Shown in pieces: positions 6,452 to 63,120 of a stretch of DNA of 64,000 nt. This DNA is from Bispira polyomma (taxonomy: Eukaryota). The position numbers were made by a program, and so were the translations under genes. Numbering within the stretch: the stretch's first letter is position 1; each line of letters starts with the position of its first letter. Location: positions 19,220,001 through 19,284,000 of the forward strand of contig OZ287753.1 in the NCBI GenBank assembly GCA_965649765.1, given 5' to 3'. Below the pieces are notes generated by a model. It was not told where the DNA came from. It ran no database searches and saw nothing but the letters and a program-made list of their open reading frames with translations.

Positions 6452-6594
6452 ATCGACAGAGGCCCAGAGAGACAAACACAGTCTAGAGTTTTGTAAAATC
6501 TCCCAAGTTAAAATCCCACGTGTTTAAACTACTCCAATCTGTCTAGTTCTCTCAGGCCACCTCGCTTCAAGTACACACGGCACAACCAGAATAC

Positions 6595-13067: not shown

Positions 13068-13584
13068 CTAAATTTCAGTAGCCTGCATGTCAAAGCCATT
13101 ATTATCATACAAACTGCCTCCAATAATCGACGGCTTTCCAGCATTGCTGATGTTTCTGTGCGAGTCGTCGCTATGACTTTTGCCGGCGTCGGCAGGGGTG
13201 CTCAGTTTGCCGTGTCGTCCAATACTGGCAAACCCATTCCTATTGCTAGCACTTCCCGCTTTACTGACACCGTTTGGCAAGGATTTACCATTTGGAGTTA
13301 AATGCGGTTTCTCCCTATTATCACTCGCACTGAGGTGATTCCCCACAAAGTCTGCACTATTGCTATCTGTATTATTTTGTTCTTTTATAGCAATGGGCTC
13401 TTCCTGTGCCTTGAGGGCAGCTCTCAGGTATTTATCGCGGTCTCTATTCCGGTTTCCTTGGCTACCGTTGTATCTATGGTACTGGTCAAACTCATCGTTA
13501 GGCATCTCCATACTCATTTCCTGTTCGTCATAGCCTTTGTCGGTATCATTAGGGGAGACAGTGTTCTCGTCCAGCGAGTTCTTA
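13068..13584 (-). CDS. Cadherin last coding exon (KNSLDENTV...MQATEI*), class I PDZ-binding end
   Basis: TAG acceptor, phase 2, in frame with ORF 13068-13517. Confidence 0.9.
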
Positions 13585-43500: not shown

Positions 43501-46500
43501 CTTATTCTAGGAAGGATAGAATGTATACTCTACAATTATACAAATAGCTATCATCAAAGAAATTGTCCATTATTTTGCTGATTTTAGTCCTTGTTTAGCA
43601 GAGATGCTGGCTATAGTTATAGTCACAGACAAACATTAAATTAACGACTTTGAATACCGCCCAAAGATAGATAAAGGTGCTGGGTATTAAATTTTGAATA
43701 CCAATACACACTATACCCACCTCTATGACCAGAGATCGCTCCAACTGCCCTTCGTTTTCCCTCACATAACCCTCGTATTCCGACCTCAGTATCTCCGGAG
43801 CATTGTCGTTCTCATCAGTTAGGCTGATTTCAAACACGACGGAGGTCCTCAGTCCTCCCCCATCCACAGCTTCAAAGGTCAGGTAGTGCGTGTCTTGTGT
43901 CTCTCGGTCTAACAGACTGTGGTCCTTGTCCGCAGCCACATCTACGTACACCATGCCATCGAACACCGTGACACGGAATAGGGAAAAACTGGCACCTTTT
44001 AATTGGTACTTCAAGGTGCCGAATACTCCTGTGTCTTTATCTGTGGCCTATGATAGTAGAATAGTAGATGGTGCGTTTAGTTTGTACACCTATGGCGCTT
44101 TATTCACAAAAGGTCTTATTCTTAACTTAGTCCTAAACTTAACATTTATATCTAAAGTCTGACATATTAAAGACTACCTACTCTTAGACTAGGTGTTAAA
44201 AGCAAAGTTAACACTAACCAAAGATATTTCTTGCTGTAACAGGGAATAAGACCCAAATCTTCAACTTAAGACAAAGTTAAAACTTTTTGTGAATACGGCC
44301 CCTAGGTTTGTTATACAGAACCTAAAAACTTCTTATCTCAGTTGAATAATAATCATACCTCAAATCCGACTGTGTATTTGAATCCAGTGCTAAAAGCTGA
44401 ATTCAAAGGAATGGTGGAATGTATAGGCTATTCCAACAAAACCTTCATTTGAGTATGAGTTTGATACTAGAATAATAGATATTACATAGACGTTTAATTT
44501 GTATATCAGTGTGATCGTATTCACAAAAGTGTCTTAGTGTCTTCACTTAGTCTTAAGCTTTAAACATTTATGTCTAAAATATTTGAGATTACATATTGTT
44601 AGTTTTGGTGTTAAGAGCAAAGTGAACACTGACCGAAAGATACCAAGTTCAGAGAATGAAAATGAGTTTAATAAAATCAACAATTTGGATAATAGAAGTT
44701 TGGATGATAGAGGTTTTAGTGTATTTTTTTTATAAACAACGGCTGTCTCAGGTGCTGGTCATACAATATACTAAGCGACAAAACTGTATCAAACTCTCTA
44801 ATAAATCTCCTGCATATGTCTGTACTTACTGTTATGTTGGTAATGTAGGTGTCTTTAGGTGAGTTTTCCCTCACTGATGCGTTGTATTTCTCTTGGTCAA
44901 ACTCGGGCCAGTTGTCATTCACATCCTCTAAGTAGATGATCACCCGTGTACAGTTGTGTCGTCTTTCAGATGTTAAATGCTCTCTGGCCACAACCTTCAA
45001 AGTGTGAAGAAGTTAAGTGTGACTCTCATTTAATAGTCTTGAGAATGGCCAAGTCAGAAATATATGTAGAACCTCTATTATCTGAAGATGTTGGGAGAGC
45101 AAGATTATGTTGTTTACATAAAAGAAGGTTCATAAACTAGAAGAGACATTTTACCGTATGTATAAAACAATAGGAAAACAGAAATTAGGGCAAGTGGATA
45201 TTGAATATTCATTCAATTGTTTAAGGCTTTAGTAACGTAAACACATAAATGCCCTGCCGAAATATTATGCTTCTTTTACGTATATTAATTCTAGTAGATA
45301 TACCCCATATATTGGCCTTAAAATGGTTGTTTAGTGCCAGTATTAACCAATTTTATATGCAAATACAATTTAAAACTTCATTATTTTGTTGAAAAGTGAT
45401 TAAAAGAGCCATATAATGATTCTGGTATTGTGACGTCACACAATTTGAAATCTGTGTACGAGCGTCATATTTGTAAACAAATCTCGAAGACAAGCCTTTC
45501 TATTGTGACACAATACGAGTATTGATTCAACACATATACAGACATTATATATGCTAAACAACTTTAGATAACATGTATATTATTTCTTATGATTTACATT
45601 TTTCAATATGTTTCCTTATTTTATAAAAACGAAGAATACAAACATCTTTCTGTTTAGAAGAGTCTAACTTTAATGTTTTTTCTATAATTGTCCCCGTTTT
45701 TGTGGTTTTATTAAAACGAATTCATTCAAAATAATGCTGAGGTTTAGCTTTTTCTAGTCATGCCCAATACTTCAGTATTGATTCTTTCTTGGTATGTGAA
45801 TTGTGTCACGTTTGTGAAGCATGTACTTTGAAAATATTACACATTTTAGTTACCATTTACACACTGCTATATATGCATTGTATGTCTGAAAATACTTATG
45901 AAAATGACACGTAAAATATATGAATTAGTATATAATTAAAATATATGGCATTGTTTATTATTTTTACAAATGAAAAATGTAAATAAGTCATCAATAAATC
46001 GAATTTATGGGGACAAAAAAAAAGTGTGCAGTTTCTGAGAAGCTCCAACAGACATAATGTGGTTTTCGGCGATCGTTTTATACGTTTACGTTACTAAAGC
46101 CTTAATGCATGTTATCTCTAGAAATAGAGTGAAAACGTATAACATTAGAAGTTAAACTTACATCAAAGTTGAACTGTGTAACTTTCTCGTAATCCAGTGC
46201 CTCCGACTCATTGACTCTGAGTACAAGGTTGGCTTCATTCAGAACACTGGAAGGGAACACTTCAAATACGTAAAACGGCTCGCCATTTTGTTCTAGGCTC
46301 AGTTCAAACTTTCCATTGTCACCCTAAACACACACACAATAAAAACATCAGCTTCACCAACCAGGATTTACATTTAAACAGACTGAAATGTAACAGAACC
46401 CCTTTTATTATACTGAGCATTTAAAAAAGCCATATTGATATATCATCGTCAGGCTGATTTTCCAAAAATGATAGTCCTACAACATGGCCTTGGTCATCAT

Positions 46501-49500
46501 CAGTAGACAATGGCATGTTCATAGATTGCCTTAGGATGTTATTGATTTTCTGTTTTAAATATTATGTAAAATTGACACTATAAAAATGTCGGAAATTCCC
46601 GTAACGACTTATTTTTTAATACATTATCATATGTGTCGTGTGATAGGAAAAAATTTATATAACAGTCCATATATCATTGTAGTAGAGTGGGATATATGTA
46701 GTGTAGTAGTGTGTAATAAATAGAGAGAGTGTCACATGCCTTGTCTAAGTCTATGACAGTCATCTCTGTTGTTTCAGGAAGGAATGTGACAGGAATCCTC
46801 TTCTGCGTGTTTTCCATCACAATACCAGTGTACTCCGTCTTAGAGAAGCTGGGTGTCTGGTCGTTAACGTCTTTAATGCGGATCATCACAAGTGCAGTGG
46901 CTGTTGTGGGGCCCTGGGGGGTCGGAGTGTCTTCTTGTGTCTGGTAGAGATGAATAAAGGCAATACAAGGGAAAGCTCTGTTATCTGAACTTCTGTTATT
47001 CAAATAGACGATTTTATTAACTCAGTATCATCCTAATAAATTAACATTTTCGTATTCGTTTGTACTAAAATACTCTACTAAAAAATAGATAAAATACTAT
47101 AAGCCTCTAATATTCACATATCAGATGTGTTCCTATACTTTAGCAATATGATCATTTCTTTACAGAAGTCTATAAAATATACTGTAAGCTACAAAAGTTG
47201 AAAACCATACAGTGGTGGCTAGGCATCCTTAATACTTAAAGATATGCTTTTTGATATTTTAACAATAGATTCTATTGGATTTCAGATAGTTGACTGTTTT
47301 AATGGTTCTTCCTTGCTCATATTGCAATCAACTATACCTTAGTCCTACAAAAGTTCACCATGTTATGTATGAGCTAAAAGGCCAAGGTCTAATTCATGGC
47401 TCAGATAAACACAGCAACCATATCCTAAAAGTATTGATTTTTCTCACTGATCTCACTATGCGCACATGAAGAGTATTCTCTTCACATCTACAATGTACAC
47501 ATATTCGCTTGAACAGTGCAATTATCTAAGTTTATTACAAGGTATAAAACTGTCATTCTTTACAAGGGATTTTATGTACCAGTATTCCGATGTTTAGCAC
47601 TCCAAAGAGCTCCAGGACTTGAGGATCTTCCCTATCCAGTGACTGACTCACAGAGATCACACCAGTTGAGGCATTGATGTGGAAGAACTGATGAAGACCT
47701 GATTCAGAACAAGGAAACACATGGAACCCCTAGGGTGGTATTCACAAGACGACTAAGCCCAGACTTTGTCTCAGATATAGTACACTTTTGTACTACTGGT
47801 AGTTTTAGGAAAATGTCTAGACACCTGGGTTCATCATATTTACTTAATTACTGTATTTATCTCAATGAACGCTGCCTTCCCAATAAACACCTCCCCCGCC
47901 CCTCAATTTACAAAATGTCAACTGCTGTTGAAATGATGTTGATCCTAAAACCTTCAATGTATCAGAATAGAGGATTATTATTAATAAAGTAACTTATATT
48001 ATTAAATATTATTATATTATATTTACTGTAAAATCAACTTTAATTATCACCAACTGGATTCACCCTCCAATATTTGGTGTCTAATAGTGGCCCACTTTTA
48101 GAAAAATACATTTTCCTGGGGCAGGCGGTGGATTGGTGGCAGTATGCAGTCCATAAGGATAAATCTGGTATGGAAATGGAGATGTCTAAGTTCGTAGTAC
48201 ATATTGGACTTCCTCGCTGAAAGCTCTATTAAAATGAATGTGAGGTGTTACCTGATGTAAAGGTGTAGTTGACAGGGTTGGGCACTCCCCGGTCACCATC
48301 CATAGCTGACACTTGTAACACAGAGGTACCCTGGGTAAAAAAGTGACAACAAACGTTATAGAAGTGTTTGTGAAATGTTCATTACAGTTACCAGTGTGGT
48401 ATATACCTGATCATCACTTGTATGGGATAATAATAGTGAAACTTTCTATTATCTAAGCAGCTTAGGAGAGTGTCAATTTAATTGGATTATTGAATGTTCA
48501 AATGAATTCATCAGTTCAAGACTAAAATAATTTAACAACAAAATAAATTAATAAATTTAATATATTCAGATAATAGAAGTTCGCTTAATAAGGTGCACTG
48601 TGGCTTTGTATATTTTTGTGCTATAGTATTTTACAACTGACTTAGTTTTAAGAGAGACCATGAAAAAGACAAAAATATTCAATAGGTCCACCATATACTA
48701 CCTTGATAATCTACTATCATGCAAAGGAAACAAACTTATACAATTTCTTTTTTTCACGTTACTTTAATGGCCTTCCATGGTACCTCTTGTATGAAAGTAA
48801 TTCAATAACACTGTTATATGTATTCCTAGGTCTCTCATTCACTCACCACTGTCGCATTTTCATACACATCTGCCATGTAGGGAAGGTTCTGGAAGAATGG
48901 GGCTGTGTCCTGGACATCCACAATGTTGATTAGTAGATCTGTGGTGCTGTTCAGGTAACCACCATCCTAAAAGTCAAAACACAACTTCAGAATGCCTCTT
49001 TTTGTATTGTATTGTAATATGGGTTTCCAACATTCCAGGGGAGTATCTACGATTTTTCATTTGGTACTCCCAAATTTATCCAAATATCATGTTTGTTTTG
49101 GTGCTAGCATAAATTTGATTCATAGGGGGGGGGGGGGGGGGGGGAAGGGGCACTCATTCTGACATTAACTTTTTTTTTTATTCTATTTACTTTAGTGCTA
49201 CCATAAATTTGTGGGGAGGAGGGGGGGTCAATCGGTCATTATATTTTTTTTTATTAGGTTTTTTTTGTTTGTATTTTATAATTTTTTCTGTCATTAAATT
49301 CGTATGCCTAGGCGTACTGGCTTCTACACAAGCTAACTAGCTACACCCCTGCATTCATTATTGATGCTAGATATCTTCAAAAGCGCCACATCAAAATTGA
49401 TAAGACATGCCATAGTCAAAAAAACAAATTGCTAGATCATAAGGATGAACTTCATAAAAAAATTACACAACAATAGTCTAACAAAGAAATGTACTCATTA

Positions 49501-52500
49501 TAGTACAGGTCAACCTTTATTGTCTAAACATGTTGGGAGAGCGAGCTATTGTTTGGGTAATAGAAGGTTATAAAATAGTGGAGGCATTTTAGTACAAAGT
49601 AATAGGAAAGCATAAATTTAAGAGGGTGAAAATTAGTTCATAAAATAGAATATTAGGATAAGAAACGTTTAAATGATAGAGGTTCTACTGTATATGTAAA
49701 ACTTACACAAAATAAAATGTTTTTTACACAGCAGGAAATCTATTTAACAGGGTATATTTAAATTTTAGTAAATTTTTACTGGTTCTGGTTGGCTGCACAC
49801 TTACAGTCAGTCAGGGGAATGACAGTTACTGGTGCTGGTTGATTGGACATGTACAGAGTCAGGGGAATGACAGTTACTGGTGCTGGTTGACTGTACATGT
49901 ACAGAGTCAGGGGAATGACAGTTACTGGTGCTAGTTGGCTGCACATGTACAGTCAGTCAGGAAAATGACAGTTACTGGTGCTGGTTGGCTGCACATGTAC
50001 AGTCAGTGAGGGGAATGACAGTTACTGGTGCTAGTTGGCTGCACATGTACAGTCAGTCAGAGGAATGACAGTTACTGGTGCTAGTTGGCTGCACATGTAC
50101 AGTCAGTCAGAGGAATGACAGTTACTGGTGCTGGTTGGCTGCACATGTACAGTCAGTCAGGAGAATGACAGTTACTGGTGCTAGTTGGCTGCACATGTAC
50201 AGTCAGTCAGGAGAATAACAGTTACTGGTGCTGGTTGGCTGCACATGTACAGTCAGTGAGGGGAATGACAGTTACTGGTGCTGGTTTGCTGCACATGTAC
50301 AGTCAGTGAGGGGAATGACAGTTACTGGTGCTGGTTGACTGGACATGTACAGTCAGTGAGGGGAATGACAGTTACTGGTGCTGGTTGACTGGACATGTAC
50401 AGTCAGTGAGGGGAATGGCAGTTACTGGTGCTGGTTGACTGTACATGTACAGAGTCAGGGGAATGACAGTTACTGGTGCTAGTTGGCTGTACATGTACAG
50501 TCAGTCAGGGGAATGACAGTTACTGGTGCTGGTTGGCTGCACATGTACAGTCAGTCAGGGAAATGACAGTTAGTGGTGCTAGTTGGCTGCACATGTACAG
50601 TCAGTCAGGAGAATGACAGTTACTGGTACTAGTTGGCTGCACATGTACAGTCAGTGAGGGAATGACAGTTACTGGTGCTAGTTGGCTGCAGATGTACAGT
50701 CAGTCAGGAGAATGACAGTTACTGGTGCTAGTTGGCCGCACATGTACAGTCAATGAGGGGAATGACAGTTACTGGTGCTAGTTGGCTGCACATGTACAGT
50801 CAGTCAAGAGAATGACAGTTACTGGTGCTGGTTGGCTGCAGATGTACAGTCAGTCAGGAGAATAACAGTTACTGGTGCTGGTTGGCTGCACATGTACAGT
50901 CAGTCAGGGGAATGACAGTTAGTGGTGCTGGTTGGCTGCACATGTACAGTCAGTGAGGGGAATGACAGTTACTGGTGCTAGTTGGCTGCACATGTACAGT
51001 CAGTCAGGAGAATGACAGTTACTGGTGCTGGTTGGCTGCAGATGTACAGTCAGTCAGGAGAATAACAGTTACTGGTGCTGGTTGGCTGCACATGTACAGT
51101 CAGTCAGGGGAATGACAGTTAGTGGTGCTGGTTGGCTGCACATGTACAGTCAGTGAGGGGAATGACAGTTACTGGTGCTGGTTGACTGGACATGTACAGT
51201 CAGTCAGGGGAATGACAGTTACTGGTGCTGGTTGGCTGTACTTGTCACTTGACGATTTAGTTAGGGGAATAACATTAACTGGTGCAGGTTCATTGCAGTC
51301 AAAAAACTGAAGAAGTGAACAAAAATGAGATACCAAATAATACCGAAAGATATCAAACGCCTCTTGATAAAGGGGCACACTGACTTAACATTCAAGGGAC
51401 ATGTTTATGTTTGTTACATATGCATTCACTATATATATGTATTTTTAGTGGCCTTTTATCAGGATGAAATCTACACACTACAGGATGGTAACTGTTAAAT
51501 TGGTGTGTAACAAAAGTAGTTCAGTATGATCAAAGTGCCACCTAGTGAATGCCAATTGCATCATTTTGACAGATGGTTGAAACATGTCCACTGAGCCTTA
51601 ACAACATATGTTCCTAACTGACTCTGGCTCTATATACTTACAATGGCTGTGATTTCCAGCTGATAGAATTTCTCCTTCTCATAATCCACGGTATTTTTCA
51701 GTATGACATCACCGTCCAGTTGGTCTATCACAAACAGGCCTTGGGGTGTCTGAAATATCAAACAACTTGTATACAACAGACATTGTGGTGTCTGAAATAA
51801 GGAGAAATATGTATAGGATCATTAAAAACAGTCAAAATCCTTTAAGTGGAACTCTGTTAAGTCGATTTCTCTTTGATGTGTAGAATATGTTGCAGTCAGA
51901 CAAAAACCTATTATAAACTACCCTGTTGAGTGGAAATCCTGCTAAAGTAGAGACATTTCAACTGGTCTCTTGAGATTCGACTTAAAAGGGTTTAACTGTG
52001 CATGTAATACAGTATAACAAGACAAGGTGGCCATACGTTGTCTCAGGGACCTGTGTACCTTGACAGTACAAAAGGCTTCAGTTAAGCAATACAGTATAAC
52101 ACGACAAGGTGGCCAGATGTTGTCAGGGACCTGTGTACCTTGACAGTACAAAAGGCTTAAGTCAAGTAATACAGTATAACATGACAAGGTGGCTAGATGT
52201 TGTCAGTGACCTGGGTACCTTGAAGGTACAAAAGGCTCAAGTCAAGTAATACAGTATAACACGACAAGGTGGCTAGATGTTGTCAGTGACCTGTGTACCT
52301 TGACAGTACAAAAGACTCAAGTCAAGTAATACAGTATAACACGACAAGGTGGCCAGATGTTGTCAGGGATCTGTGTACCTTGAAGGTACAAAAGGCTTAA
52401 GTCAAGTAATACAGTATAACATGACAAGGTGGCTAGATGTTGTCAGTGACCTGTGTACCTTGACGGTACAAAAGGCTTAAGTAAATAAGTAAGTCATAGA

Positions 52501-55500
52501 GTAGAACCTCTATTATCCAAACTTGTTGGGAGAGCAAGATTTGTTCAGATAATAGAAGGTTTAATAGGAGAGACATTTGAGGGATAACTTTTCATTTTTT
52601 GCACGATTAGAGACATAGTAACACGAAGGCAAAGCCTAAGTGTTTCTAAGCTACAAATTGGTAAAAATTACTGTAAAGCATGCTTTGGAATGTGTTATCC
52701 CTATTTTAACATGACAAATGAACAATATTACCTGATTCCAGCTGTTTTTACTTTAAAATTACGTTGTTAAAGGAACTATTATATCCATTTGGGCATCAAC
52801 TACACTGCAGACGAAATTCGTCTACTTCCGTTCATGTATATACGGTTATTTATAAAATAGCGTTGAGCCAATCAGAATTGCTGATACAGCTGTGTCATGT
52901 TAGAATTTAGTATATACATGTATAACAAAAGCCTGGCACATGCAAAAGTACTTGAGACATGTTTAAAAGAATTAAATAATGTCCATGATTTGCAGTCAAA
53001 CACATAGCAAAATCTGGTCTAGAACAACAAAATAAGATTTCATGAACTTTGTGATAGCTGAATTCACTAAAACACACACCACAGATCACTTCCGGCATTA
53101 AATACCAGACTCAGGTATCATTTTCACACAGGGAAGTCTGGTGTACTAACAATCTCCTATTGCAAGGAACTGAAGGGCAACAAAATAATATTTTAGAGTG
53201 TTGACTGTTTGCTGACAGACATTGGTTCTGGGAGTAACAATTTACATCAACTGCTTGCCCTTAAAGTATGAGTAGATCATGATACATAAATCGCCTATAC
53301 ATCCATCTGCAGCAGTAAAAGTAAATAATACCACACAAAAAATATATTTGATTTAAGTGAGGTAAAATAACTTTTATATCCAACAACACAGCAAACCACT
53401 GCAATTAAAACATTCTGTGAGAAAAGGCAGGATAAAAACAGAGATAAACTATTATGAAGTATTTGTAAATATAAATACATCATTCCAGTGTCTGCAACAT
53501 TTGGTACAATTCTCAGTGAAAACTTGCTTAAATATTAAACTTTATTAAAGATTTTTTTTGCAGTTCCAATGCAATTATTATACCAATAGCCAATCAACTA
53601 TAGCCGTGCAATTTTACAAGATGCCAAGTCTTTAAAAATCTAAACTGGAGGAACAATAAAAGTACAAACACACACACATAAAATCAAAACCACACAACAC
53701 TCTCAAAGTAACCCAAATATCAAAAAAAAATACCTTCTGCGGATACTGTGAAAAATAAAATTAAAAAAACATTTTTAGAAACATAATTAAAGAAAAAGCC
53801 AAACAAAAGCATAGTAATTATAACTTGATTATAAATTAATTAGATATTATTAACCATCCAACTGAAAGGAACTGTCCGTGGCGCTATTTGGCTATGTAAT
53901 TAAGTGGTACTTGTTTGGTGATCAAAAGTTTCCTTTAGAATATAATCTTTGTGAGAAGTCGTACTGTTTCAAAAACAAGGGTTCCCTTAAATACTTTATA
54001 TCCTGTAAGGATGTGTTAATGTTTAAATACAAGCTTTAATTAATACAGATCCATGTTTTAGTGAGTAAATGAGGCAAAGCTTTTAAGTAACAACGTAAAA
54101 ACTAAGAAAATGTAACACATTTAAAGTGAAATTTGTGATTATAGATCCGATTGTTACATGGGTCAAATCTTTCTGATAATAAAATATGTTAGGATGAACA
54201 AAATGCACCTAAAATGTACAATTTGTTTCTTATAGACGATTAGGTGATAGTATTGCACTGCATAGCGACATTCTAAGCATCTTTGTTAATGCAGTTGTTA
54301 GTATCATTCAAAATGGAAAGAAAGCATCAAATATGCGTATGGTTCTTCTGTCTGTGTTAATATTTAAAATGCTATAGTTAGCGTCTAGTTTTAAAACGAA
54401 GGCTACTGCACAGTATACACAATATTCATGAATATATATAATTACCGTCTCTTTCATCTACACAACACAGGGTATACATAAATATCAACAACATAACCAA
54501 GCAGTAAATAAAACACAAGCTAAATACCCCTATCTCAAGTAAACTGGAGATAAAACATGTCCACTTGAGATGATAATTATAAATATGAACAAAAATAGAT
54601 ATATATATATATTATCCAAAGATTATAACAATTTTTGTTATATATTTACCCATTTAGTTAATGGCTAATGAGTGACATTTCCAAAAAGAAAATATTTTAA
54701 GTTAACATTATGCTATTAATCTACACAAACGTCCATTGCAGCTACATTTTGATAACTGGTAACATAATAGCTTCTTTTCACTTTTTGGCAATTTCAAAGT
54801 AACAAAATAAGATTCTGTTTATTAACTGAAAATAACAGCATTAAAAAACTAAAACAACAGTCCTAAAATACAAAGAACACTGATTATAAGTTAACTGGCA
54901 ATTAGAGCAGCTATCAAAAATGCTACATTTATCAACACCCTAGCATTATATAAAGTTTACCATGCTATTTACATCTGGTTTTATTAGTAAAATCATAGCA
55001 TTTACTGCCATTTAAGCAGCATGTGTTATATTTGTAAGACCTCTTGAAGATTATGTACCACCATCACTGTACTTAATTTCATACTGATAATTTGAATACC
55101 TTAAGTTTCAGCCTTAACATTTCCAGTTCACTAAAGTGGAAAAACATTTTTACTAAAACGCTAAACAAAATTGTTACTTAAAGTCTAAACATTAAAATGA
55201 ATCCATATATTTACTTACACAAACATGTATAAGGGTTGAGACTCTACTGGGTGGGAGTAAACATATAATACATGTATACGTATTCAAATGCTATTTGTTC
55301 TAACAGAAGAAGAAACAGCAATTTGTTGAGACCATGTAGCTAAAGGGGAAGGGGACATGTATCCAAAATGCATCTAACATTTATTTTAGGTTTATATTCA
55401 CAGCTGAACAAACATTTACACAGTTAAGTTTGCCTTAAATCTGCAGACTCGGTAACATATGAAAATAAAATAAAATACGGTCATAACGTATTAAAAGTAC

Positions 55501-58500
55501 TTTGTTAATAGAGTTTAAACATTTAAAGGAGTAAGAACAGAAAATATAGGGTTAAAATTTGAACGTGTGCGTTAAATTTACATATTAAAATCATTTTAAC
55601 AAAACTTCTGTGCAATGTACGGAAATCAACAGATTGTGTGCTAGTTTAGGAATGTATAAATATACATAAGTTTGTCCAACTGTGAGTAAAATAACAGCGA
55701 AGTATTTATAAAAGATTCCAAGATCATTGTTCACTCGTCAACTGTACAAGAACAACATGTCAACTGATATGGCCTGAAGTATTGGACTTTGTGACTTTCT
55801 GTGACTTTCAAAGTCAATGGTTCACCTTAAGTGAGGAAACTACCCTGCATAATTACATCTTAACGGATGATATTGGTTTCAAATTATAAGGGCCTCTGAC
55901 AAACTCTTACTCTAACATCTGTCAGAATATTAATTAAAGGTCAAAGTCACTTCTCCAAATCACTGTTTAGTCCAGAAATAGTTCCTTAGATATGCACTGA
56001 TAACATGTTTAAAGTCAAAGTAAACTTTCAAGATCCTACATAAAACTAAGGTCATACATCCATTGCACAACTACCTTATTTTATATTTCTACCATTTCAG
56101 TTAGTATTTCTACCAAAGCATAAAGTTCTTATCTGACATATTTGCAGGTGTGGGTGTTTTAAGTTCAAGGTCAACATCCTGATGCAAACAGTCAAATTGG
56201 GTCAAACTACAAATACACTGTATTTAATTTTGAGAAAAATCCCTCATTATTTATTATTGACAGTTTGACGTTTTGCTTCTACTATAACAGCTTGACATGT
56301 AAAATATGTGTATGGAGCCTGCCACTCAATTCAATTACTCTATATGTTGTTTACTATACTGCCTCTGGTTATAATTCGGCCTTCAGTTGTAAATCGGCCG
56401 TCACATTTTAAATGGTAATTATTGACAATCTTGGTACAAAATTGACCATAGGATTCAAGTAAAACAATTACAATAATATTATTCAAGGAAGTAAAATATT
56501 GTTAGGCCAATACATTAAATTAATTTGAAGTTATAAGACATTTATTGTATGGTGGCCGATTTATAACAGGTGGCCGATTTATGACCACAAGCAGTATAGA
56601 TTTCATACAGCATTCTGGGCAGGTTCTAAACACTGCTAGTGAGAAATAAGTACTGCTTTCAAACTTGGAATCTTTCTAAATATTTAAAAACAGAAATGTG
56701 CACAGGGATGTAAACAACCAGCTGATGGAGGTACCTGGTCAATTTCCTATGGTCAAAACAGATGTAGAAACAAACATTAGGCTTAGATATATATGCTGAT
56801 ATATACAGATATATATGTATATGTACAAAATATGCTATTGTTGTCAAAATGTAATCTGCAGTCAAACCCCTCTAAGTAAAACTCTGTTAAGTCTATTGCT
56901 TTTTTTTGGAGAAAAGTTTGTAGTCTCACAAAAGCCTCCTCTTTAAAAATATACCCTGTTAACGGTGGAAATCCTGCTTAAGTAGAGCTATTTCTCCTGG
57001 TCCCTTGATGTTTGACTTAAAGGGGTTCAACTGTATATCGAGTTTTTAGGATGTGACCTTGTGATAATGGTCTCAATTTAACGAGGTAATGACACACACA
57101 AAAGTACATACAGCTATTATAAACAGACTCTGCAATATTGGTCTTTGAAATAAACATAATCGCATTCATCATTATGTAACATAGTTCAAATGCATATCCT
57201 CGACAATAGATCAAATGAAAATACATGTATATTATTTGTTGTAGGAGTTTTATGTAACAACCATATCACTATGACATGAGGTGGTTGGGGTAATTGTGAA
57301 GCCTAACCAATTGCAGACCACGTTTGAGATGACCCAGACCCAAGACTAACCAGTTTAAAGAGGAATGTTGAAGCTGATACAAACAACATATTATATAAAC
57401 AAATCAAAGAACTGATAATTGACAAATATCAAGGAGAACATCGGAAGTATTGAGTAGAATGTATATCTATTTAGGGTTTGTAATTCTTATAAGTAATTTA
57501 TCCTTTTACAATGGCAGCCACTTCTAAATGGAATAGACTTCCTCCTGAACCCTAGCCTACCCCTCTAATGGTGGTTTTATGGCCCAACATTCATTGTTTA
57601 TCAGACTCTTATAATAAGAGCTTTAGATCATTACTTGGGTATTCTTCATACTGCAGTGGCTCGTATATGTTAGTTGTGTCAGGTTACTAAGGAGAATTTG
57701 AAATTGTAATACATGTAAAAAGCTTATTAGAAACTATACTGCTTCAGTTATATGAATACGTTTTTAAAGTTATTTGCTCTTTGAGAAGGAAGAATATATG
57801 TAACATACTTAATATCTCTGTTATTGTAGATGTAACCCTTTTTTTACTTTATATACATTTTAATTTTACTAATTGTACATTATTTATATGGACCTTAACT
57901 TTGTGTCTGAAATAAAGTTTACATGATCCATCTATCTATTGGATACAGACTGGACAATGCCATAGGACTAATTGTTTTCTGGTTATGGCTCTGGAGACTA
58001 TTTATAGAGTATTAGGTGCTATAAATAGAAGCTACTATACATTACATAACAAATAGAAGTTGCACTCACAGTGATGTTGTAGTAGACAACTCCACCTGCC
58101 CCAGAGTCAGGATCAAAGGTGTTCACCTGGTACACAGTCGTACCAATTAGTGCATCCTGGAGAAACAGAAGATACAGTAGAATCTCTATTATCTTATTGT
58201 CATGAATTTAACATCATGCTACTGTAAAACCAGTAGTAAACAAAATAGAAAAACTGAAAGGATGAAAAATTACCATATACTTTCTATCAATTTGCAATGT
58301 GTTAGTACTACTTGTAGAATTAAAAATGATTATATATGAGGGAGTTTTAAAATGCCAGGAAGCCACCGAGAGATGTTATAGTGACTCTATAGCTAGCCAG
58401 CGCCGTATTCAAAAACATTCTTAAAAAGGAATTCTTAGAATTTTTTAGTCTACACCAATCAGGTTATTTGAAACAATATTTTCAGCCAATCAAATTGATT

Positions 58501-61500
58501 AAGACAAAAATATGCCAATTAAACCCTTTGTAAATACTAGCCATGGAACCTTGTAGCCGGTGTAATAGTATGAGCATATTGTGTGATAGCTTCAGCTACA
58601 TGTATCACAATTAAAGTACCCAGCATCTCTACTATGTACAAGGTCCACATATACTTTCGCTGTTTTGTTCGCACAAAGACAGACATTTAGACATAGCATT
58701 TTAACCCAAGATCTTTGGGGACCTTGAAACGTAACAATCAATATCGTAGGGAAAATATGTTGCAATAGTGATTGTGATGTCATTTTCTGTGTTGGTATCG
58801 CTAAGTTATGTTTCTAAAAATCGTTCCAAATTCATCACACTTGGTCATACTATGTCATAACGCAACACAACGTCACAAACAAGTAATTATAAGTGCATGG
58901 CATGCATCAACACTTTCCTAAGTTTGTTAAACGGCTCACTAATGTAGTAAATACTGCTAGATAATGCTAGAAATAAGCAGTTCTGACCCAAATATTTCTA
59001 ACAGTTTAAAATAATTGCGACAGGGGACTAAATGTAGATGATTCTGTAACAAAATATAACTTAACGAAACAAACACACATGGAATACTGACTATGAGATA
59101 CTTTATGTCGAGTTTTCAAACGTTGTACAGTCATGGCTCTTAAAAGGAGAGGTGTGACCGTTACATTACTCACATTACTAGCCAGGTGTTAGAACACAAA
59201 CTGCTGCATCTTTTAAAAGTTACTATATGTGTATATATTTTATATTGTGCACTCCATGAGCTGCATATTGCAAAAATATGCCCAGTGCTGTCATAAATTT
59301 GGAACTTCAAAAAAGATCTATTAGTACAATGCACTTTTCTCACCTCTGGAATTTCAGCACGATATGGCAAGTTAATGAAGGTTGGGTGGTTGTCATTGAC
59401 ATCAACTATTATGATTTTAAACGTTCGCCTGACTGCCTGGTTTTTGCTGTCATCTACTTCTATTGTGACATCATAACTTTCAACATCCTGAAAATAGAGT
59501 TTTTGGTTTAAATAAGTTAAATAAAAATAAAAGAGGCATTTTAGTGAAAAACAGTCTAAAACATACAAAATGTTGAAGAGTGAAGATCAGTTCATAAAAC
59601 AACATGAATTACTTAATTTTACACGGGTAAATCACATGATATTATTATGACCCCATAATAATATTATGTAATTTCAGTACCAAATTATAGAAATTAAATT
59701 ACAATGAAAAAAACGACTTAAGTTAAGGTAAGACTAACTGAAAAATAATTTAAAATAAAGTTAGTGACCTAAGGTTACCTTATGACTTTTCTCCTTTAAC
59801 ACTTTTTCAATAATATTGACATAGTTTTACTTTTCATAAGCTGTTACTCTTTTTCGCAAATGTGCCCCAGTAGCTGCTACTCTACTTGAAAATGGATTCA
59901 AAGTTTACTTAAAACAAAGCATTAACAAGACCAAAACTAAGAAATTACTGAAACTTACAGACAATAAATGTTTTACATCAGCTGATCTTTTTTCCCGAAG
60001 CATCTGGCCAAGGCAGCCATCTTGTTTTTTTCAAAATGAGACTTTTGTCTTAAGTTTTGTCTCATAAAAGTTTTTGTTTAGCCCATTTTGTGAATCCCAA
60101 CTTAAGACAAATTTTAGCTGAGACAAAGTCTTAAGTTTAAAACTGGTCTGAAGCACAAATTTAGAACATAAAGGGTAAAGGGGCACTAGGGTAAGGGTGC
60201 CAGGTAAGAGGGCCTCATCACACAAATACATTAATCCCAGTTGGGGTAGAGGGTTGGTAAGGACCAAATATAGTACAGTTCTTGACATCTGCGTCTCTCT
60301 GTACTATTTGCCTCATTATCCAAGCCTAACCAATAAACAATACTGAACTCCATATTTTTGGCAGAGTGTTGTCTCTGACTAAAGTGCCTGAAAACTGGGG
60401 TGGACTTTTGATGGGTTTGGGGGAGCCACAAGTTTTTGTACAGCTTCTTCCAGTAGGCTCAGAGTATGATGACTCAATCTGTTGCCAGGTATACGAGTAC
60501 CTGGCTCTGGAGTATTGAATGTTGAACTTTATCCCACTTATAGGTGGTTAAGTGCTGGGATGGAGCTGTGTCACTTGCACTCATGGTTATATACCCAAGT
60601 GAATAATATAAAAGTTTGTTTGAACTTGGTGCAGGTGACAGGAGTAATCTGACTGCCTTATATATTAATATTGGTTAATATATTTGGAACTCCTATGGGT
60701 ATTCTCATCAGAGGCTGATCCGGCGGAGCAATTGAGCTGAGTAGAGCTCAATTCAGCTCTACTCAGCTCAATTGCTCTGCCGGATCAGGCGGAGTTGGGC
60801 GGAGTTCATTTTACCACCTTAAGGCAAAAAAGGTGATTCTAATACAGCCTCTGATGAGAATACCCATAGGAGTTCGAAATATATTAACCAATATTAATAT
60901 ATAAGGCAGTCAGATTACTCCTGTCACCTGCACCAAGTTCAAACAAACTTTTATACAAATTTAGAACATGTTGTGAATCTTACCCTGGAAGAGTTAGTAC
61001 ACTTGCCATTATCTAGATAGGTCACAGGGCATGATGGCCAAATATCCCCACCTAGGGACCAGTAATACATCTCAACCACAATCACAGTGATTAATAACCC
61101 TAGTTCTATGGAAGACGGTGGTTTAGAACCAGGAACCTAAGGCACCTAATCACCTAGCAGAGGGCGATGGGTCCAGCCCCATAAAGCCTAGCATCCTCAA
61201 CATATGGGTCAGAGGCGGTTGGAGGGACTAGACCCACCCTCCACTTGGTCCTGGGTTCAAGCAGTAAACCAGGTAAGTTACTGTTAGTGACCACAGCAAG
61301 TCAGAAGTCCAGCAATCAAAGGAAGTTAAAGTAAGCAAGTACCTACCATTAAGTAACCTCAGCACCATGAAAAAGGTAACAGCAGAGAGCATCAATTAGC
61401 ACACTTTGGAGTCACACTCACCTCTTTATCATAAATGATTTCAGACTTTATAGCCTGCACTTTCTTGTCACTAGTAGGGTCCAAGGATACAATACCCTGA

Positions 61501-63120
61501 GCAATCTCTCCAACGATGGTAAACTGCAAGTCATTCTCATCTCCACTATACGAGACAATTACATCACCAATGTATGTGTCTAAAAGTAAAGACACATATA
61601 CACAAACATATATAGAATTCTACTGTCAGTTTTGTAAGAAAATCTGTGTGTGTGTGTGGGGGGGGGGGGGGGGGCTTGGACAATGTTCCAGGGGGGGAGG
61701 GGGGGGGGCTGTTATTTAGGAATTAAAGAAGATAATGTTGATATGTGGGAGTTTAACCTTTAAGTTAAAAAGTAAAATTATAGTATGTATCAATATGTAT
61801 CATACAATTAAACTATCCACACAATATCTGGGTACTATCTATCTCTATGATATTATTATGCGTCATTCAAATTTTCTATTTTTTATCAATACTGTAATTA
61901 AATTCTACCCTGTTTAGTAGAAATTCTCCTGGTCTTTGAGATTTGGTATGAATGGGTTCAAGTGCATGTGAAAATAAAATACAGTTGAACCCCTTTAAGT
62001 CAAACCTCAACTGTTCTACTTCTACTTAACCAGGATTTCCACACTCAACGGGTAAAATTAGAAGAAAATATCTTATATTAAGTTAACAAGAGTTCTACTT
62101 AAGAGTCTAGTGACGTAAACACATAAAACGATCGCCGATAACCACGTTATGTGTGCTTGAGCTTCTCAGAAACTACACAACCTTTTCTTTGTGGCCTTAA
62201 ACCCATTTTATAGATAACATATTTACATTTTCATCAGTAGAAATAATAAAGAATGACTTATATTTTAATTATATACTAATTCATATATTTTAAGTATCAT
62301 TTTAATAGATATCTTGAGACATACAATACATATAGCAGTGTGTCATATTGTAACTAAAATGGGTAATATTTTCAAAGTACATGCTTCACTAACGTGACAC
62401 AATTCATATACCAACACGGGATCAATACTGAAGTATTGTACATGAATAGAAAAAGGAAAATATCAGCATTATTTTGAATGAATTTGTTTTTCAAGAAAAG
62501 CACAAAAACTAGATAATTTTAGAAAAACTTTAAGGTTACACTGCTGTAAATAGAAAGATACTTAGTTTTCTTTGTTTATACAAAATAAGGAGACATATTT
62601 AAAAATGTAATTCATTGAAAACAATATACACGTTTTTTAAAGTTGTGTAGCCTATATAATGTCTTCCTTTATGCTGGATCAATACTTGTATTATGTCACA
62701 ATAGAAGGGGCTCTCTGCGAGAAATGTTTACAAATATGACGTTCCACCATAGATTTCAAATTGTGTGACGTCACAATACAGGAATCGTTGAATGGGTGTT
62801 TTTATAGTTTTATAGCATAGTATTAACCTTTTAAATAGTTTGGATGTATAAAAATGGTTTAGAAACCATACTAAAGTGTACTTTACAGTCCTTATATTTG
62901 GTATACAGACTAGAAATGACTCTCGTAAAAATAGCATGCTTTATCCCCAGCCCGTTTATGTGTTTACGTTATTAAAGCCTTAAAGGGGTCGACTGTAAAC
63001 AAGCTCTGTTGTTTGATTTCAATAAGTATTGAAGGGTTCCCTTACCTACTGGTTCATTTTCATCAATGAAGTAGATATGGTTACTGCCTACAAATGTGGG
63101 TGGTAAGGTGTTGCAACTTC
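13068..63120 (-). CDS. Cad87A: Cad87A/cadherin-23-like non-classical cadherin (14 EC repeats, membrane-adjacent domain, TM, cytoplasmic tail); multi-exon, first coding exon outside window
   Basis: 34 exon positions join in frame to ~1930 aa; 13 DxND-type linkers, LDRE/LDYE and DxD motifs; cytoplasmic RKLKAATAMAFG, PGTNKHSYEGSNPIW, SLDEN and C-terminal ATEI resemble Cad87A/CDH23-type tails. Orthology not tested. Confidence 0.85.
16294..16356 (-). CDS. Cadherin cytoplasmic exon (SNPIWLEQYENGWPRETDTD)
   Basis: CAG / GTGGG, phase 2-2. Confidence 0.88.
18120..18300 (+). mobile_element. Non-autonomous Helentron/HINE-like element 3' part; related end at ~11950-12070
   Basis: (ACAA/ACAG)n microsatellite then AAAACAT..CCTTGGCRGARGTAA terminal hairpin, seen twice. 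Confidence 0.5.
20673..20739 (-). CDS. Cadherin cytoplasmic exon (SHDTGLNHVHGVPGTNKHSYE)
   Basis: CAG / GTAAG, phase 1-2. Confidence 0.9.
21245..21757 (-). mobile_element. 3' end of an L2-like LINE
   Basis: SITPVLKKLHWLPV...FRKKLKTHLY C-terminus, 3' stem-loop and AATAAA tail. Confidence 0.85.
23326..23366 (-). CDS. Cadherin juxtamembrane exon (YKRKLKAATAMAF)
   Basis: TAG / GTAAG, phase 2-1. Confidence 0.9.
24096..24387. mobile_element. MITE, Harbinger-like
   Basis: AGGGCCCTTACAGACCGCC / GGCGGTTTGTAAGACCCT imperfect TIRs, TA-rich flanks. Confidence 0.6.
25194..25336 (-). CDS. Alternative transmembrane exon B (PQSLAISTSAEVTRWSMSSSLYLMVAIVGLLIVIFVVTCVVYYKRQH)
   Basis: TAG / GTGAGT, 143 nt, phase 0-2, stop-free; hydrophobic helix followed by YYKR. 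Confidence 0.82.
27085..27212 (-). CDS. Transmembrane exon A (PAVVEVSESRVDKTILIGVIAVAVVLAVLIVVICVTAWTCRK)
   Basis: TAG / GTAAGT, 128 nt, phase 0-2; hydrophobic helix followed by basic residues. Confidence 0.88.
27514..27860 (-). mobile_element. Degenerate LINE 3' fragment
   Basis: SYYAASFWNSFPSYIT remnant typical of the LINE ORF2 C-terminus. Confidence 0.5.
28125..28191 (-). CDS. Cadherin exon (LIDKNYIYLEDLFKKYNVMEVL)
   Basis: TAG / GTATG, phase 2-0. Confidence 0.88.
28370..28724. repeat. Degenerate ~32-bp tandem repeat derived from an exon donor site
   Basis: ACTTACTCAA...CTGTTGACA...GGT units, degrading away from the exon. Confidence 0.7.
28720..28788 (-). CDS. Cadherin exon (TDMFIHGIDNKTGEVVPADVLI)
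   Basis: CAG / GTAAG, phase 2-2. Confidence 0.88.
29065..29240 (-). CDS. Cadherin exon, membrane-adjacent domain (IYFLNENQRV...PDAR)
   Basis: CAG / GTATA, phase 0-2. Confidence 0.9.
29709..29948 (-). CDS. Cadherin exon, EC14 (LYATDPDIG...TADVS)
   Basis: CAG / GTGAG, phase 0-0. Confidence 0.9.
30163..30402. mobile_element. MITE family D (GGGGCCGTATTCACAAAAG TIR, Harbinger-like); copy at ~44094-44303, relatives at ~30530 and ~63616-64000
   Basis: TIRs and shared internal sequence between copies. Confidence 0.75.
31018..31196 (-). CDS. Cadherin exon (YWEKEEN...DINDNPPKF...IDLS)
   Basis: CAG / GTAAG, phase 1-0. Confidence 0.9.
31790..31924 (-). CDS. Cadherin exon (GDVVYKSRF...IDRE...DCSS)
   Basis: CAG / GTAAT, phase 1-1. 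Confidence 0.9.
32195..32440. repeat. Tandem copies of an exon 3' end plus donor
   Basis: CACTTACCCACTATGTAATAACAGATCACTGAGTTATTTC, about 5 copies. Confidence 0.9.
32410..32641 (-). CDS. Cadherin exon (LQVRAYDLG...DENDHPP...YYIV)
   Basis: TAG / GTAAG, phase 0-1. Confidence 0.9.
32870..33398. repeat. 40-bp minisatellite (~13 copies) derived from an exon 3' end plus donor
   Basis: AATACACTCACATTGTAATACACCTGTTTTTGCCTCAGTT units. Confidence 0.92.
33374..33562 (-). CDS. Cadherin exon (HEEVG...IDREKQVYYN)
   Basis: CAG / GTGAG, phase 0-0. Confidence 0.9.
34395..34687 (-). CDS. Cadherin exon (SASDQDEG...DVNDHPP...VKE)
   Basis: CAG / GTATA, phase 1-0. Confidence 0.9.
35272..35500 (-). CDS. Cadherin exon (GEMTTTDALDRE...DVNDNAPQF...VIK)
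   Basis: CAG / GTATG, phase 0-1. Confidence 0.9.
36217..36329 (-). CDS. Cadherin exon (TSVTSVYATDRDSGEFG...DNQT)
   Basis: TAG / GTAAG, phase 1-0. Confidence 0.9.
36655..36812 (+). mobile_element. Partial copy of the SINE at 63195-63541
   Basis: Shares CTTGGACAAGGT, ACCCAGGTGTA.AA.TGGGTACCTG and TGGTTGACAAGTGGAAGAACCCAGG. Confidence 0.8.
36914..37170 (-). CDS. Cadherin exon (YYLIEDK...VDHE...DVNDNSPEW...NDTI)
   Basis: CAG / GTAGG, phase 2-1. Confidence 0.9.
38211..38367 (-). CDS. Cadherin exon (TLSITLRDVNDNPPEW...QPV)
   Basis: CAG / GTATG, phase 1-2; duplicated acceptor 120 nt upstream. Confidence 0.85.
38307..38526. repeat. 120-bp tandem duplication of acceptor plus exon 5' part
   Basis: Near-identical blocks 120 nt apart. 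Confidence 0.95.
38786..39000 (-). CDS. Cadherin exon (YRLLDD...LDRE...QNAT)
   Basis: CAG / GTGAG, phase 2-1. Confidence 0.9.
39662..39818 (-). CDS. Cadherin exon (ETVVHVNITDVNNKLPEF...NHLL)
   Basis: TAG / GTAGA, phase 1-2. Confidence 0.88.
39866..40741 (+). mobile_element. ~876-bp non-autonomous TTAA-specific DNA transposon (Kolobok-like), copy 1
   Basis: TTAA flanks, GG..CC termini, ~25-bp TIR GGCTTTAGTAACGTAAACACATAAA. Confidence 0.85.
41020..41640. repeat. ~22-bp minisatellite plus longer copies of an exon 3' end
   Basis: GTATACTGACCAGTTAGTGTTT units; GTGTTCCTCTATCTATGGCCAGTA exon copies near 41090 and 41255. Confidence 0.92.
41590..41811 (-). CDS. Cadherin exon (FQVETVHANDDD...LDRD...DRGTPPLT)
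   Basis: CAG / GTGAG, phase 1-1. Confidence 0.9.
42665..42971 (-). CDS. Cadherin exon (ATDRDLPP...LDYE...DENDEAP...NSAG)
   Basis: CAG / GTAAG, phase 0-1. Confidence 0.9.
43721..44047 (-). CDS. Cadherin exon (ATDKDTG...LDRE...DENDNAP...LVIE)
   Basis: TAG / GTGGG, phase 0-0. Confidence 0.9.
44830..44994 (-). CDS. Cadherin exon (VVARE...DVNDNWPEF...ITNIT)
   Basis: AAG / GTAAG, phase 0-0. Confidence 0.88.
45225..46101 (+). mobile_element. Kolobok-like element, copy 2
   Basis: Colinear with copy 1, TTAA flanks, TIRs. Confidence 0.85.
46162..46323 (-). CDS. Cadherin exon (GDNGKFEL...LDYEKVTQFNFD)
   Basis: TAG / GTAAG, phase 0-0. Confidence 0.9.
46740..46940 (-). CDS. Cadherin exon (TQEDTP...DVNDQTPSF...IDLDK), GC donor
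   Basis: CAG acceptor; AAG|GCATGT donor is needed to give DLDK-GDNG in frame. Confidence 0.85.
47580..47698 (-). CDS. Cadherin exon (LHQFFHINASTG...LDREDP...IGIL)
   Basis: CAG / GTACA, phase 1-0. Confidence 0.88.
48252..48330 (-). CDS. Cadherin exon (GTSVLQVSAMDGDRGVPNPVNYTFTS)
   Basis: CAG / GTAAC, phase 0-1. Confidence 0.9.
48847..48966 (-). CDS. Cadherin exon (DGGYLNSTT...DVQDTAPFF...ENATV)
   Basis: TAG / GTGAG, phase 0-0. Confidence 0.9.
49778..51295. repeat. 50-bp minisatellite, ~30 copies
   Basis: GCACATGTACAGTCAGTCAGGGGAATGACAGTTACTGGTGCTGGTTGGCT units. Confidence 0.97.
51642..51749 (-). CDS. Cadherin exon (TPQGLFVIDQ...VDYEKEKFYQLEITAI)
   Basis: CAG / GTAAG, phase 0-0. Confidence 0.9.
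52005..52482. repeat. 80-bp minisatellite, ~6 copies
   Basis: ACAGTATAAC recurs at 52171, 52251, 52331 and 52411. Confidence 0.95.
53734..53745 (-). CDS. Candidate 12-nt microexon (YPQK)
   Basis: ttttcacag TATCCGCAGAAG gtattt; >70-nt AG-free U-rich tract; phase 0-0. Confidence 0.55.
54446..54457 (-). CDS. Candidate 12-nt microexon (MKET)
   Basis: tgtgtag ATGAAAGAGACG gtaatt; ~60-nt AG-free U-rich upstream tract; phase 0-0. Confidence 0.5.
58070..58156 (-). CDS. Cadherin exon (DALIGTTVYQVNTFDPDSGAGGVVYYNIT)
   Basis: CAG / GTGAG, phase 0-0. Confidence 0.9.
59344..59487 (-). CDS. Cadherin exon (DVESY...DVNDNHPTF...IPE)
   Basis: CAG / GTGAG, phase 0-0. Confidence 0.9.
60652..60718 (-). ncRNA. 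Inverted hammerhead copy with core GAAA changed to CAAA (predicted inactive)
   Basis: Identical to the + copy within the inverted arms except at position 60686. Confidence 0.75.
60844..60910 (+). ncRNA. Type I hammerhead ribozyme, intact core
   Basis: GCCT-CTGATGA-GAATACCCATAGGAGTTC-GAAA-TATATTAA(CCAATA)TTAATATA-TA-AGGC: stems I-III and an AUA cleavage triplet. Confidence 0.85.
61422..61579 (-). CDS. Cadherin exon (DTYIGDV...IIYDKE)
   Basis: TAG / GTGAG, phase 1-0. Confidence 0.85.
62103..62979 (-). mobile_element. Kolobok-like element, copy 3, nested in a family-A MITE
   Basis: Reverse complement of copy 1; TTAA at 62099-62102 and 62980-62983. Confidence 0.85.
63046..63120 (-). CDS. Cadherin exon, start of EC1 (SCNTLPPTFVGSNHIYFIDENEPV)
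   Basis: CAG acceptor, GTAAG donor, phase 1-1. Confidence 0.8.

What the first reader, a model, noticed from the sequence alone, without database searches (positions are those of the whole stretch)
53301..54457. Cluster of candidate microexons (12, 12 and 6 nt) in the EC2 loop
Seen: the longest intron (51750-58069, phase 0) holds three frame-preserving AG-exon-GT units: MKET (54446-54457), YPQK (53734-53745) and MD (53301-53306; ttttactgctgcag ATGGAT gtatag). Each follows a 60-80 nt AG-free U-rich tract with a UGC, in a repeat-poor part of the intron. They would insert between YYNIT and TPQGLF, a surface loop near the N-terminal adhesive end. Known: SRRM3/4 (eMIC) neural microexons use upstream UGC motifs and often tune adhesion proteins. 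Inference: up to 8 EC2 variants, times 2 TM exons, could form a small isoform code. The 6-nt candidate is weakest and could instead read MDV-stop.
Basis: partly seen in the sequence, partly recalled or inferred. Interest (0 to 1): 0.75.

Follow-up and report, generated by a model that had tools for sequence, protein, structure and literature searches.

The report
Mini-exon cluster in a worm cadherin
An intron of a cadherin-23-like adhesion gene, from what is likely an annelid worm, holds three tiny exon-like units (12, 12 and 6 bases), at least one of which is likely a real mini-exon that would lengthen one surface loop, the same spot where mollusc versions of the protein differ by exactly four amino acids; no RNA was available to confirm it.

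Summary
The three AG-exon-GT units are present at the stated places, in frame and stop-free, in the 6,320-nt phase-0 intron of a single-copy Cad88C/CDH23-like cadherin gene (likely annelid). Bare units are common (157 in this intron). Units with a 60-nt or longer AG-free, U-rich lead-in and a usable donor are rare: 3 here against 3 in 400 kb of flanking DNA; with looser, less fitted filters P is about 0.01-0.1. Independent support: mollusc orthologs keep this intron, and their loop is 9, 13 or 15 residues; two mussels at 87% identity differ by a clean 4 residues at this junction. The genome encodes a near-complete eMIC (SRRM_C) motif. Against: no RNA run was listed; only the 6-nt unit has UGC close to the acceptor; MKET has a poor acceptor and MD a poor donor; skipping all three gives the loop length of Owenia and vertebrate CDH23; no fetched ortholog species has isoforms that differ at this site. 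Odds: at least one 12-nt unit real about 0.75, all three about 0.3, an 8x2 isoform code about 0.1.

The parts
58070..58156 (-). Upstream flanking exon (87 nt, EC2 strands B-C, ends YYNIT; donor GTGAGT, phase 0)
   Evidence: its residues 4-27 match residues 125-148 of CDH23 EC1-2 chain 2wcp_A
54446..54457 (-). Candidate 12-nt microexon MKET; good donor (6.0 bits), poor acceptor score (-3.9, UG-rich), AG-free 60 nt, UGC at -46
53734..53745 (-). Candidate 12-nt microexon YPQK; best of the three (acceptor 7.8, donor 4.7, AG-free 76 nt, U 0.63, U/UG-rich downstream); an internal AG could also give a 3-nt unit (K)
53301..53306 (-). Candidate 6-nt microexon MD; acceptor 6.6 with UGC at -5 and -8, weak donor (2.5); read-through gives MDV-stop
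53263..56287 (.). Single-copy, repeat-free 3-kb block of the intron that holds all three units
51750..51791 (-). Second, upstream acceptor (local duplication, 17 of 21 nt alike), score 7.7, AG-free 46 nt; use would add 14 open-frame codons to the same loop
51642..51749 (-). Downstream flanking exon (108 nt, starts TPQGLF; EC2 strands D-F)
13068..63120 (-). Host gene: Cad88C/CDH23-like cadherin; 1,907-codon open model from 61579 to the stop, plus an EC1-start exon near 63120-63045; signal-peptide exon not found

Best explanation
The three exon-like units sit in frame in an intron of a cadherin-23-like gene, and at least one of the two 12-base units is likely a true microexon that, when spliced in, would add four amino acids to a loop of the second cadherin repeat. 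The skip form has the short loop of Owenia and vertebrate CDH23, so inclusion is optional for the fold (inferred). The long AG-free, U-rich lead-ins likely serve exon definition of these very short exons, probably with help from the Srrm234 eMIC protein that the genome encodes, in a subset of cells, most plausibly neurons or sensory cells (inferred from fly and mouse precedent, untested). The predicted effect is a local change of the EC2 surface near the adhesive tip that tunes binding rather than creating a large code. YPQK is the most credible unit (about 0.7), MKET next (about 0.55), MD last (about 0.4).
For: Shown: units, phase and open frame. Rarity: strict filter 3 in 6.3 kb vs 3 in 400 kb of flanks, 1 in 36.3 kb of other introns, 0 of 300 Markov shuffles reaching 3; loose filter 3 vs 29 in 400 kb, 7 of 300 shuffles. 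Of AGs with lead-in >=60 nt and U>=0.5, 3 of 4 here have an in-frame open best donor vs 5 of 49 in flanks and 1 of 8 in other introns. Orthologs: mollusc loop 13 residues in 9 species, 9 in 2, 15 in 1. Potamilus vs Sinanodonta are 87% identical over 1,568 residues with only two gaps past the signal region, one the 4 residues at this junction. Two oyster models break right after strand C, and Littorina models start 4 residues later after intron-like run-in, which brackets a separate 4-codon piece (inferred). Internal control: the only candidate in intron 23325-20740 (24 nt, AG-free 104, UGC -5) lies where Patella, Haliotis, Littorina and Ruditapes isoforms differ by 7, 6, 5 and 13 residues. SRRM_C positions 3-66 of 67 are encoded on two exons of contig C8. 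Mouse Cdh23 has a 6-nt exon classed Neural in table S2 of PMC8797185.
Against: No transcript evidence of any kind. The strict filter was fitted to the three units; with lead-in >=60 and donor >=2 alone, 26 of 300 shuffles reach 3. The MKET acceptor scores below all 34 real acceptors and the MD donor below 32 of 33 real donors. UGC is near the acceptor in 1 of 3, and UCUC tracts are nearly absent. The peptides do not resemble the mollusc 4-mers (TDAQ, PVGQ, PAVS). Owenia and Dimorphilus models have the short loop. No within-species difference at this site among 6, 3, 3, 3, 3, 3 and 3 listed proteins of Patella vulgata, P. caerulea, two Haliotis species, Mercenaria, Potamilus and Lineus or the 2 of Ruditapes. 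Mollusc genomic DNA could not be read, so their 4-residue piece is not shown to be an exon. In the EC3 intron where Patella has an optional 7-mer, the window gave no candidate. The CDH23 homodimer passages read (PMC7317872) name EC1 strand F, the EC1 N-terminal strand and the EC2 G-strand, not this loop.
Confidence: 0.62

Rival explanations
1. One 12-nt unit is a constitutive or near-constitutive microexon (as the mollusc 4-mer seems to be), or the two 12-nt units are alternatives to each other; the rest are decoys. There is no neural switch.
For: All listed isoforms within each mollusc species share the +4 loop, and the 13-residue loop is identical in Patella and Haliotis although the proteins are 61% identical. 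No +8 or +10 form was seen in any ortholog relative to its clade's short form. UGC is far from the acceptor in both 12-nt units.
Against: The nearest relative by tree (Owenia) has the short loop; weak splice sites fit regulated rather than constitutive use; three units share the architecture.
Confidence: 0.15
2. All three are chance AG...GT pairs in a U-rich part of an AT-rich intron.
For: 157 bare units in this intron; loose-filter P is 0.01-0.07 and the site was picked by eye from a whole window; each unit has one weak feature; the skip form matches the Owenia and CDH23 loop length.
Against: Shuffles of the U-rich block itself reach 3 in 0-3 of 300 depending on filter; 3 of 4 in-frame best donors; mollusc 4-residue step at the same junction; repeat-free block.
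Confidence: 0.18
3. All three are independently regulated microexons that, with the two TM exons, give a combinatorial adhesion code.
For: Spacing of 700 and 427 nt allows co-inclusion; all frames are compatible; two alternative TM exons exist; orthologs tolerate loops of 5 to 15 residues.
Against: No isoform data; no ortholog species shows variation at this site; 16 forms that differ in one loop outside the named CDH23 homodimer contacts is thin ground for a recognition code.
Confidence: 0.08

Closest known systems
Srrm234-eMIC / SRRM3/4-dependent neural microexons (PMC8797185; bioRxiv 10.1101/2024.09.17.613571)
   Same: Very short frame-keeping exons, long AG exclusion zones, weak splice sites, strong upstream donor; SRRM_C motif present in the genome.
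   Different: UGC close to the 3' splice site in 1 of 3 units; almost no UCUC tracts; no CUAAY branch motif within 90 nt of any unit; flanking introns long, unlike the fly pattern; dependence untested.
Vertebrate CDH23 microexons of 6 and 3 nt (PMC8268283; skipping of micro exon 12 in retina, PMC12047242; mouse event MmuEX0010490 classed Neural)
   Same: Same gene family; tiny in-frame exons inside cadherin repeats.
   Different: The 2-residue vertebrate isoform difference lies near residue 378 after a DxD motif and the 1-residue one near 1402, not in the EC2 loop; vertebrate EC2 has only the short loop.
Optional short inserts in invertebrate Cad88C/CDH23-like RefSeq isoforms (Patella 7 aa in EC3, Lineus 10 aa in EC5, spiders and scorpion 12 aa, molluscs 5-13 aa after the TM)
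   Same: Patella and Lineus inserts fall in the equivalent loop after strand C of another repeat.
   Different: Other repeats, single inserts; none annotated as optional in EC2 and none as a cluster of three.
Tandem microexon clusters of synaptic adhesion proteins (LAR/PTPRD mini-exons, agrin z exons; recalled, from no call)
   Same: Adjacent mini-exons that change one extracellular loop and so alter partner binding.
   Different: Unrelated folds; their effect on binding is shown, here it is only predicted.

Membership tests
eMIC/SRRM3/4-dependent microexon | Length 3-27 nt, frame-preserving, AG/GT bounded | tested here: met
   12, 12 and 6 nt, phase 0, no stops
eMIC/SRRM3/4-dependent microexon | Long AG exclusion zone | tested here: met
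   60, 76, 62 nt against a median of 38 at the gene's acceptors; 4 real acceptors reach 60 or more
eMIC/SRRM3/4-dependent microexon | UGC close to the 3' splice site | tested here: inconclusive
   Met by MD (-5, -8), not by MKET (-46) or YPQK (-66); the motif is present in 74-79% of targets and not strictly required
eMIC/SRRM3/4-dependent microexon | UCUC-rich pyrimidine tract and strong CUAAY branch point | tested here: not met
   UCUC/CUCU counts 1, 0, 0 per 102 nt; the only CUAAY lies 98 nt before YPQK
eMIC/SRRM3/4-dependent microexon | Regulator with an eMIC domain in the genome | tested here: met
   PF15230 positions 3-55 (31.6 bits, cut-off 27) and 56-66 on a second exon 8 kb downstream
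eMIC/SRRM3/4-dependent microexon | Neural-specific inclusion lost on eMIC loss | not testable with these tools
   No RNA run listed
True microexon (any regulator) | Present in spliced RNA | not testable with these tools
   Only 3 DNA runs held the stretch
True microexon (any regulator) | Conserved in relatives | tested here: inconclusive
   Protein level only: 4-residue step at the same junction in molluscs, different peptide; no close relative available
Cad88C/CDH23-like cadherin (about 1,900 aa invertebrate form) | Colinear cadherin repeats, membrane-adjacent domain, TM and conserved tail; groups with orthologs | tested here: met
   Colinear chains of 23-29 segments with Tubulanus, Owenia and Lineus proteins; tree; single copy of the membrane-adjacent exon

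The most novel reading that the evidence does not exclude
An intron in the EC2 loop of the invertebrate cadherin-23 has hosted microexons since the mollusc-annelid ancestor, and in this worm it expanded into a tandem cassette of three nerve-cell-regulated mini-exons that give several tip variants of a tip-link-family cadherin with different binding, a small adhesion code for sensory cells or neurons.
Probability: 0.12. Interest if true: 0.75.

Novelty: new member of a known kind. Interest (0 to 1): 0.46.

Why it matters
CDH23 binds its partners through EC1-2. If real, these exons would change that end of the invertebrate ortholog, at a site that also varies by one 4-codon step in molluscs, and would give a testable case of microexon control of a tip-link-family cadherin outside vertebrates and flies. 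Gene models that miss such exons would also have the loop wrong. The class itself (microexons in CDH23-family and other adhesion genes) is well known.

Tried and rejected
No RNA holder listed for 51500-59600; this is no evidence on expression. The three DNA runs showed no variants over the block, so polymorphism could not test constraint. No look-alike stretch in other scanned genomes, no second copy of the block or of the membrane-adjacent exon in the genome. A full-length homolog search returned almost only vertebrate CDH23; the tail-region search gave 55 proteins, mostly Cad88C/CDH23-like. No close relative spanning the junction was found (best full-length identity 46%). Rejected: homology of the 6-nt unit with the vertebrate 6-nt CDH23 exon (different repeat and position); assembly error (contigs agree); repeat-derived origin (single-copy). 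Lottia's +6 loop could be 6+12 nt, but the extra pair starts with V and the model has another apparent intron read-through, so donor read-through is likelier. The loop regex failed on Ruditapes, Littorina and Lingula rows (11 of 43 proteins); Ruditapes was read. The splice matrices had two exon bounds off by one and lacked one TM exon; one search corrected them. The careful tree did not finish; the quick tree is cited. Sotomayor 2012 was not held and 'L145G' with 'cdh23' gave 0 papers, so the role of CDH23 L145 in PCDH15 binding is recalled only. No structure or complex was predicted.

Full report
Host gene. The minus strand carries a multi-exon cadherin. Exon bounds with continuous phases give an open 1,907-codon model from 61579 to a stop at 13068; an exon near 63120-63045 supplies the start of EC1. 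The best colinear matches are the roughly 1,900-residue 'cadherin-23-like' proteins of nemerteans, annelids, molluscs and a brachiopod, and insect proteins named cadherin 88C. The membrane-adjacent exon has 1 match in the genome. A quick tree of 25 rows places the model with Owenia and Dimorphilus (SH-aLRT 94; careful search unfinished; highest identity 46%), so the animal is likely an annelid. The intron in question is in EC2: the upstream exon matches residues 125-148 of CDH23 EC1-2 chains, and the junction aligns between mature residues 149 and 150 of mammalian CDH23, in the loop after strand C (strand naming recalled).

Observation. The three units are present as described. Scores from matrices built on this gene's 34 acceptors and 33 donors: MKET acceptor -3.9, donor 6.0; YPQK 7.8, 4.7; MD 6.6, 2.5; real sites, left out one at a time, span -0.5 to 14.8 and 1.2 to 11.8. 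AG-free lead-ins are 60, 76 and 62 nt. UGC lies at -46, -66 and -5/-8. In 3 of 3 DNA runs one contig spans the units without a difference and depth is single-copy from 53263 to 56287, with repeats on both sides; the block has 1 match in the genome.

Chance. The intron holds 157 in-frame, stop-free AG-3n-GT units of 3-30 nt. With lead-in >=60, U>=0.5, a UGC and donor >=2 bits there are 3 here, 0 on the other strand, 1 in 36.3 kb of the other introns, 1 on their other strand and 3 in 400 kb of flanking DNA (both strands of 20 fetched stretches); 0 of 300 first-order Markov shuffles reach 3. That filter was fitted to the candidates. With lead-in >=40, U>=0.45 and donor >=2 the counts are 3, 0, 5, 1 and 29, and 7 of 300 shuffles; with lead-in >=60 and donor >=2 only, 3, 1, 6, 3 and 72, and 26 of 300. 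Poisson estimates for the loose filter are P = 0.01-0.07. Among AGs with lead-in >=60 and U>=0.5, the best donor within 30 nt is usable, in frame and open for 3 of 4 in this intron, 5 of 49 in the flanks, 1 of 8 in other introns and 0 of 3 on their other strand. The cluster is more than chance would usually give, but not overwhelmingly so.

Relatives. Counting residues between the end of strand C and the next conserved F, the skip form has 5, as do Owenia, Dimorphilus and vertebrate CDH23; Lineus and Branchiostoma have 6 and Tubulanus 7. So no insert is needed. Mollusc orthologs have 13 in 9 species, 9 in Sinanodonta and Liolophura, and 15 in Lottia. Potamilus and Sinanodonta are 87% identical over 1,568 aligned residues; past the signal region they have two gaps, one residue near 946 and four residues exactly at this junction. 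By inference those four codons cannot come from a shifted donor or acceptor if the two species share them, because the piece neither starts with a GT-compatible codon nor ends in AG. Two oyster models jump from the end of strand C to the exon after next, which marks the same donor, and Littorina models enter the domain four residues further on after intron-like run-in, which marks the acceptor. Together these suggest a separate 12-nt exon in molluscs; I could not read their DNA, so a deletion or an annotation gap is not excluded. Against a switch: within each species the listed proteins all share one loop (6 of 6 Patella vulgata, 3 of 3 each in P. caerulea, two Haliotis, Mercenaria, Potamilus and Lineus), and the peptides differ from the worm's.

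Family precedent and control. RefSeq isoforms of orthologs differ by short inserts elsewhere: 7 residues in Patella EC3 and 10 in Lineus EC5 in the equivalent loop, 12 in spiders and a scorpion, and 5-13 just after the TM in four molluscs. In the window's intron at that last site the scan gave one candidate, 24 nt at 22817-22794 with a 104-nt lead-in and UGC at -5; in the EC3 intron it gave none. Vertebrate isoforms differ by 2 and by 1 residue at other positions. PMC8268283 (one passage seen) gives CDH23 microexons of 6 and 3 bp; PMC12047242 (passages) lists skipping of micro exon 12 in retina; table S2 of PMC8797185 (rows seen) classes a 6-nt mouse Cdh23 exon as Neural and has no Cad88C row.

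Regulator. Pfam SRRM_C positions 3-55 (31.6 bits, above the cut-off of 27) and 56-66 are encoded by two exons 8 kb apart on contig C8. PMC8797185 (section 10 and passages) lists long AG exclusion zones, UGC close to the 3' splice site, UCUC-rich tracts and strong branch points for eMIC targets; bioRxiv 10.1101/2024.09.17.613571 (passages) finds UGC in 74-79% of targets, position-dependent but not strictly needed. The units meet the first feature, meet the second in 1 of 3 and miss the third, so eMIC dependence is open; the UG-rich flanks of MKET and YPQK could point to CELF/ELAV-type factors instead (recalled).

Mechanism. Shown: the units, their frame, their rarity, the loop position, the regulator gene. 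Inferred: splicing of one or more units into the mRNA, cell-type control, and an effect on adhesion. The junction lies four residues after CDH23 L145, which I recall as part of the PCDH15 handshake; that paper was not held. Passages of PMC7317872 place CDH23 homodimer contacts on EC1 strand F, the EC1 N-terminal strand and the EC2 G-strand, not on this loop. A modest tuning role is therefore more likely than a code. A second acceptor 42 nt upstream of 51749 could add 14 codons to the same loop.

Novelty. Searches of the held library for microexon + cadherin + CDH23 (4 papers), Cad88C + alternative splicing + isoform (0), micro-exon + cadherin + annelid (1, on myxozoans) and two wider lophotrochozoan searches (listings only) showed no report of this site. 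bioRxiv 10.64898/2026.09.05.749416 has no cadherin mention in its main text; its supplements could not be seen and may bear on this. PMC10089651 and PMC7547225 were seen as passages only. One earlier AI note describes a similar 6-nt IQGAP exon in abalone and worms; I did not test it. Verdict: a probable new member of a known class, unconfirmed without RNA. At least one 12-nt unit real about 0.75, all three about 0.3, combinatorial code about 0.1; interest 0.46.

Noticed in passing
window 22794-22817 (-): 24-nt in-frame candidate microexon (AG-free 104 nt, UGC at -5, donor 6.0) in the post-TM intron where four molluscs have optional 5-13 residue inserts and mammalian CDH23 an optional 5-mer; arguably better supported than the three units.
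   Followed up: partly
window 27085-27212 and 25194-25336 (-): Two transmembrane exons with the same phases (0 in, 2 out), likely mutually exclusive.
   Followed up: partly
window 51750-51791 (-): Duplicated acceptor 42 nt upstream of the downstream exon, open frame, score 7.7; would add 14 residues with two cysteines to the same loop.
   Followed up: partly
window 46740 (-): Probable GC-AG intron (donor GCATGT) at the junction that matches the vertebrate CDH23 2-residue microexon position; no microexon candidate passed the scan in this 416-nt intron.
   Followed up: partly
window 38210-38490 (-) and 41100-41620 (-): Tandem partial duplications of exon ends into neighbouring introns (start of exon 38367 repeated 120 nt upstream; end of exon 41590 repeated downstream).
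   Followed up: no
window 45865-45894 (-) and 27412-27471 (-): Further short in-frame candidates with long AG-free lead-ins (138 and 62 nt) in other introns.
   Followed up: no
window 649-6523 (-): Long ORFs resembling a DIRS-type retrotransposon (gag-like, reverse transcriptase/RNase H-like, tyrosine recombinase-like; judged from motifs by recall) downstream of the cadherin gene.
   Followed up: no
window 52020-52470 (-): Tandem repeat of about 60-nt units in the same intron.
   Followed up: no
L021:1501-1667 and L022:8405-8500 (G000 contig C8): Two exons that together encode nearly the whole SRRM_C (eMIC) motif.
   Followed up: yes
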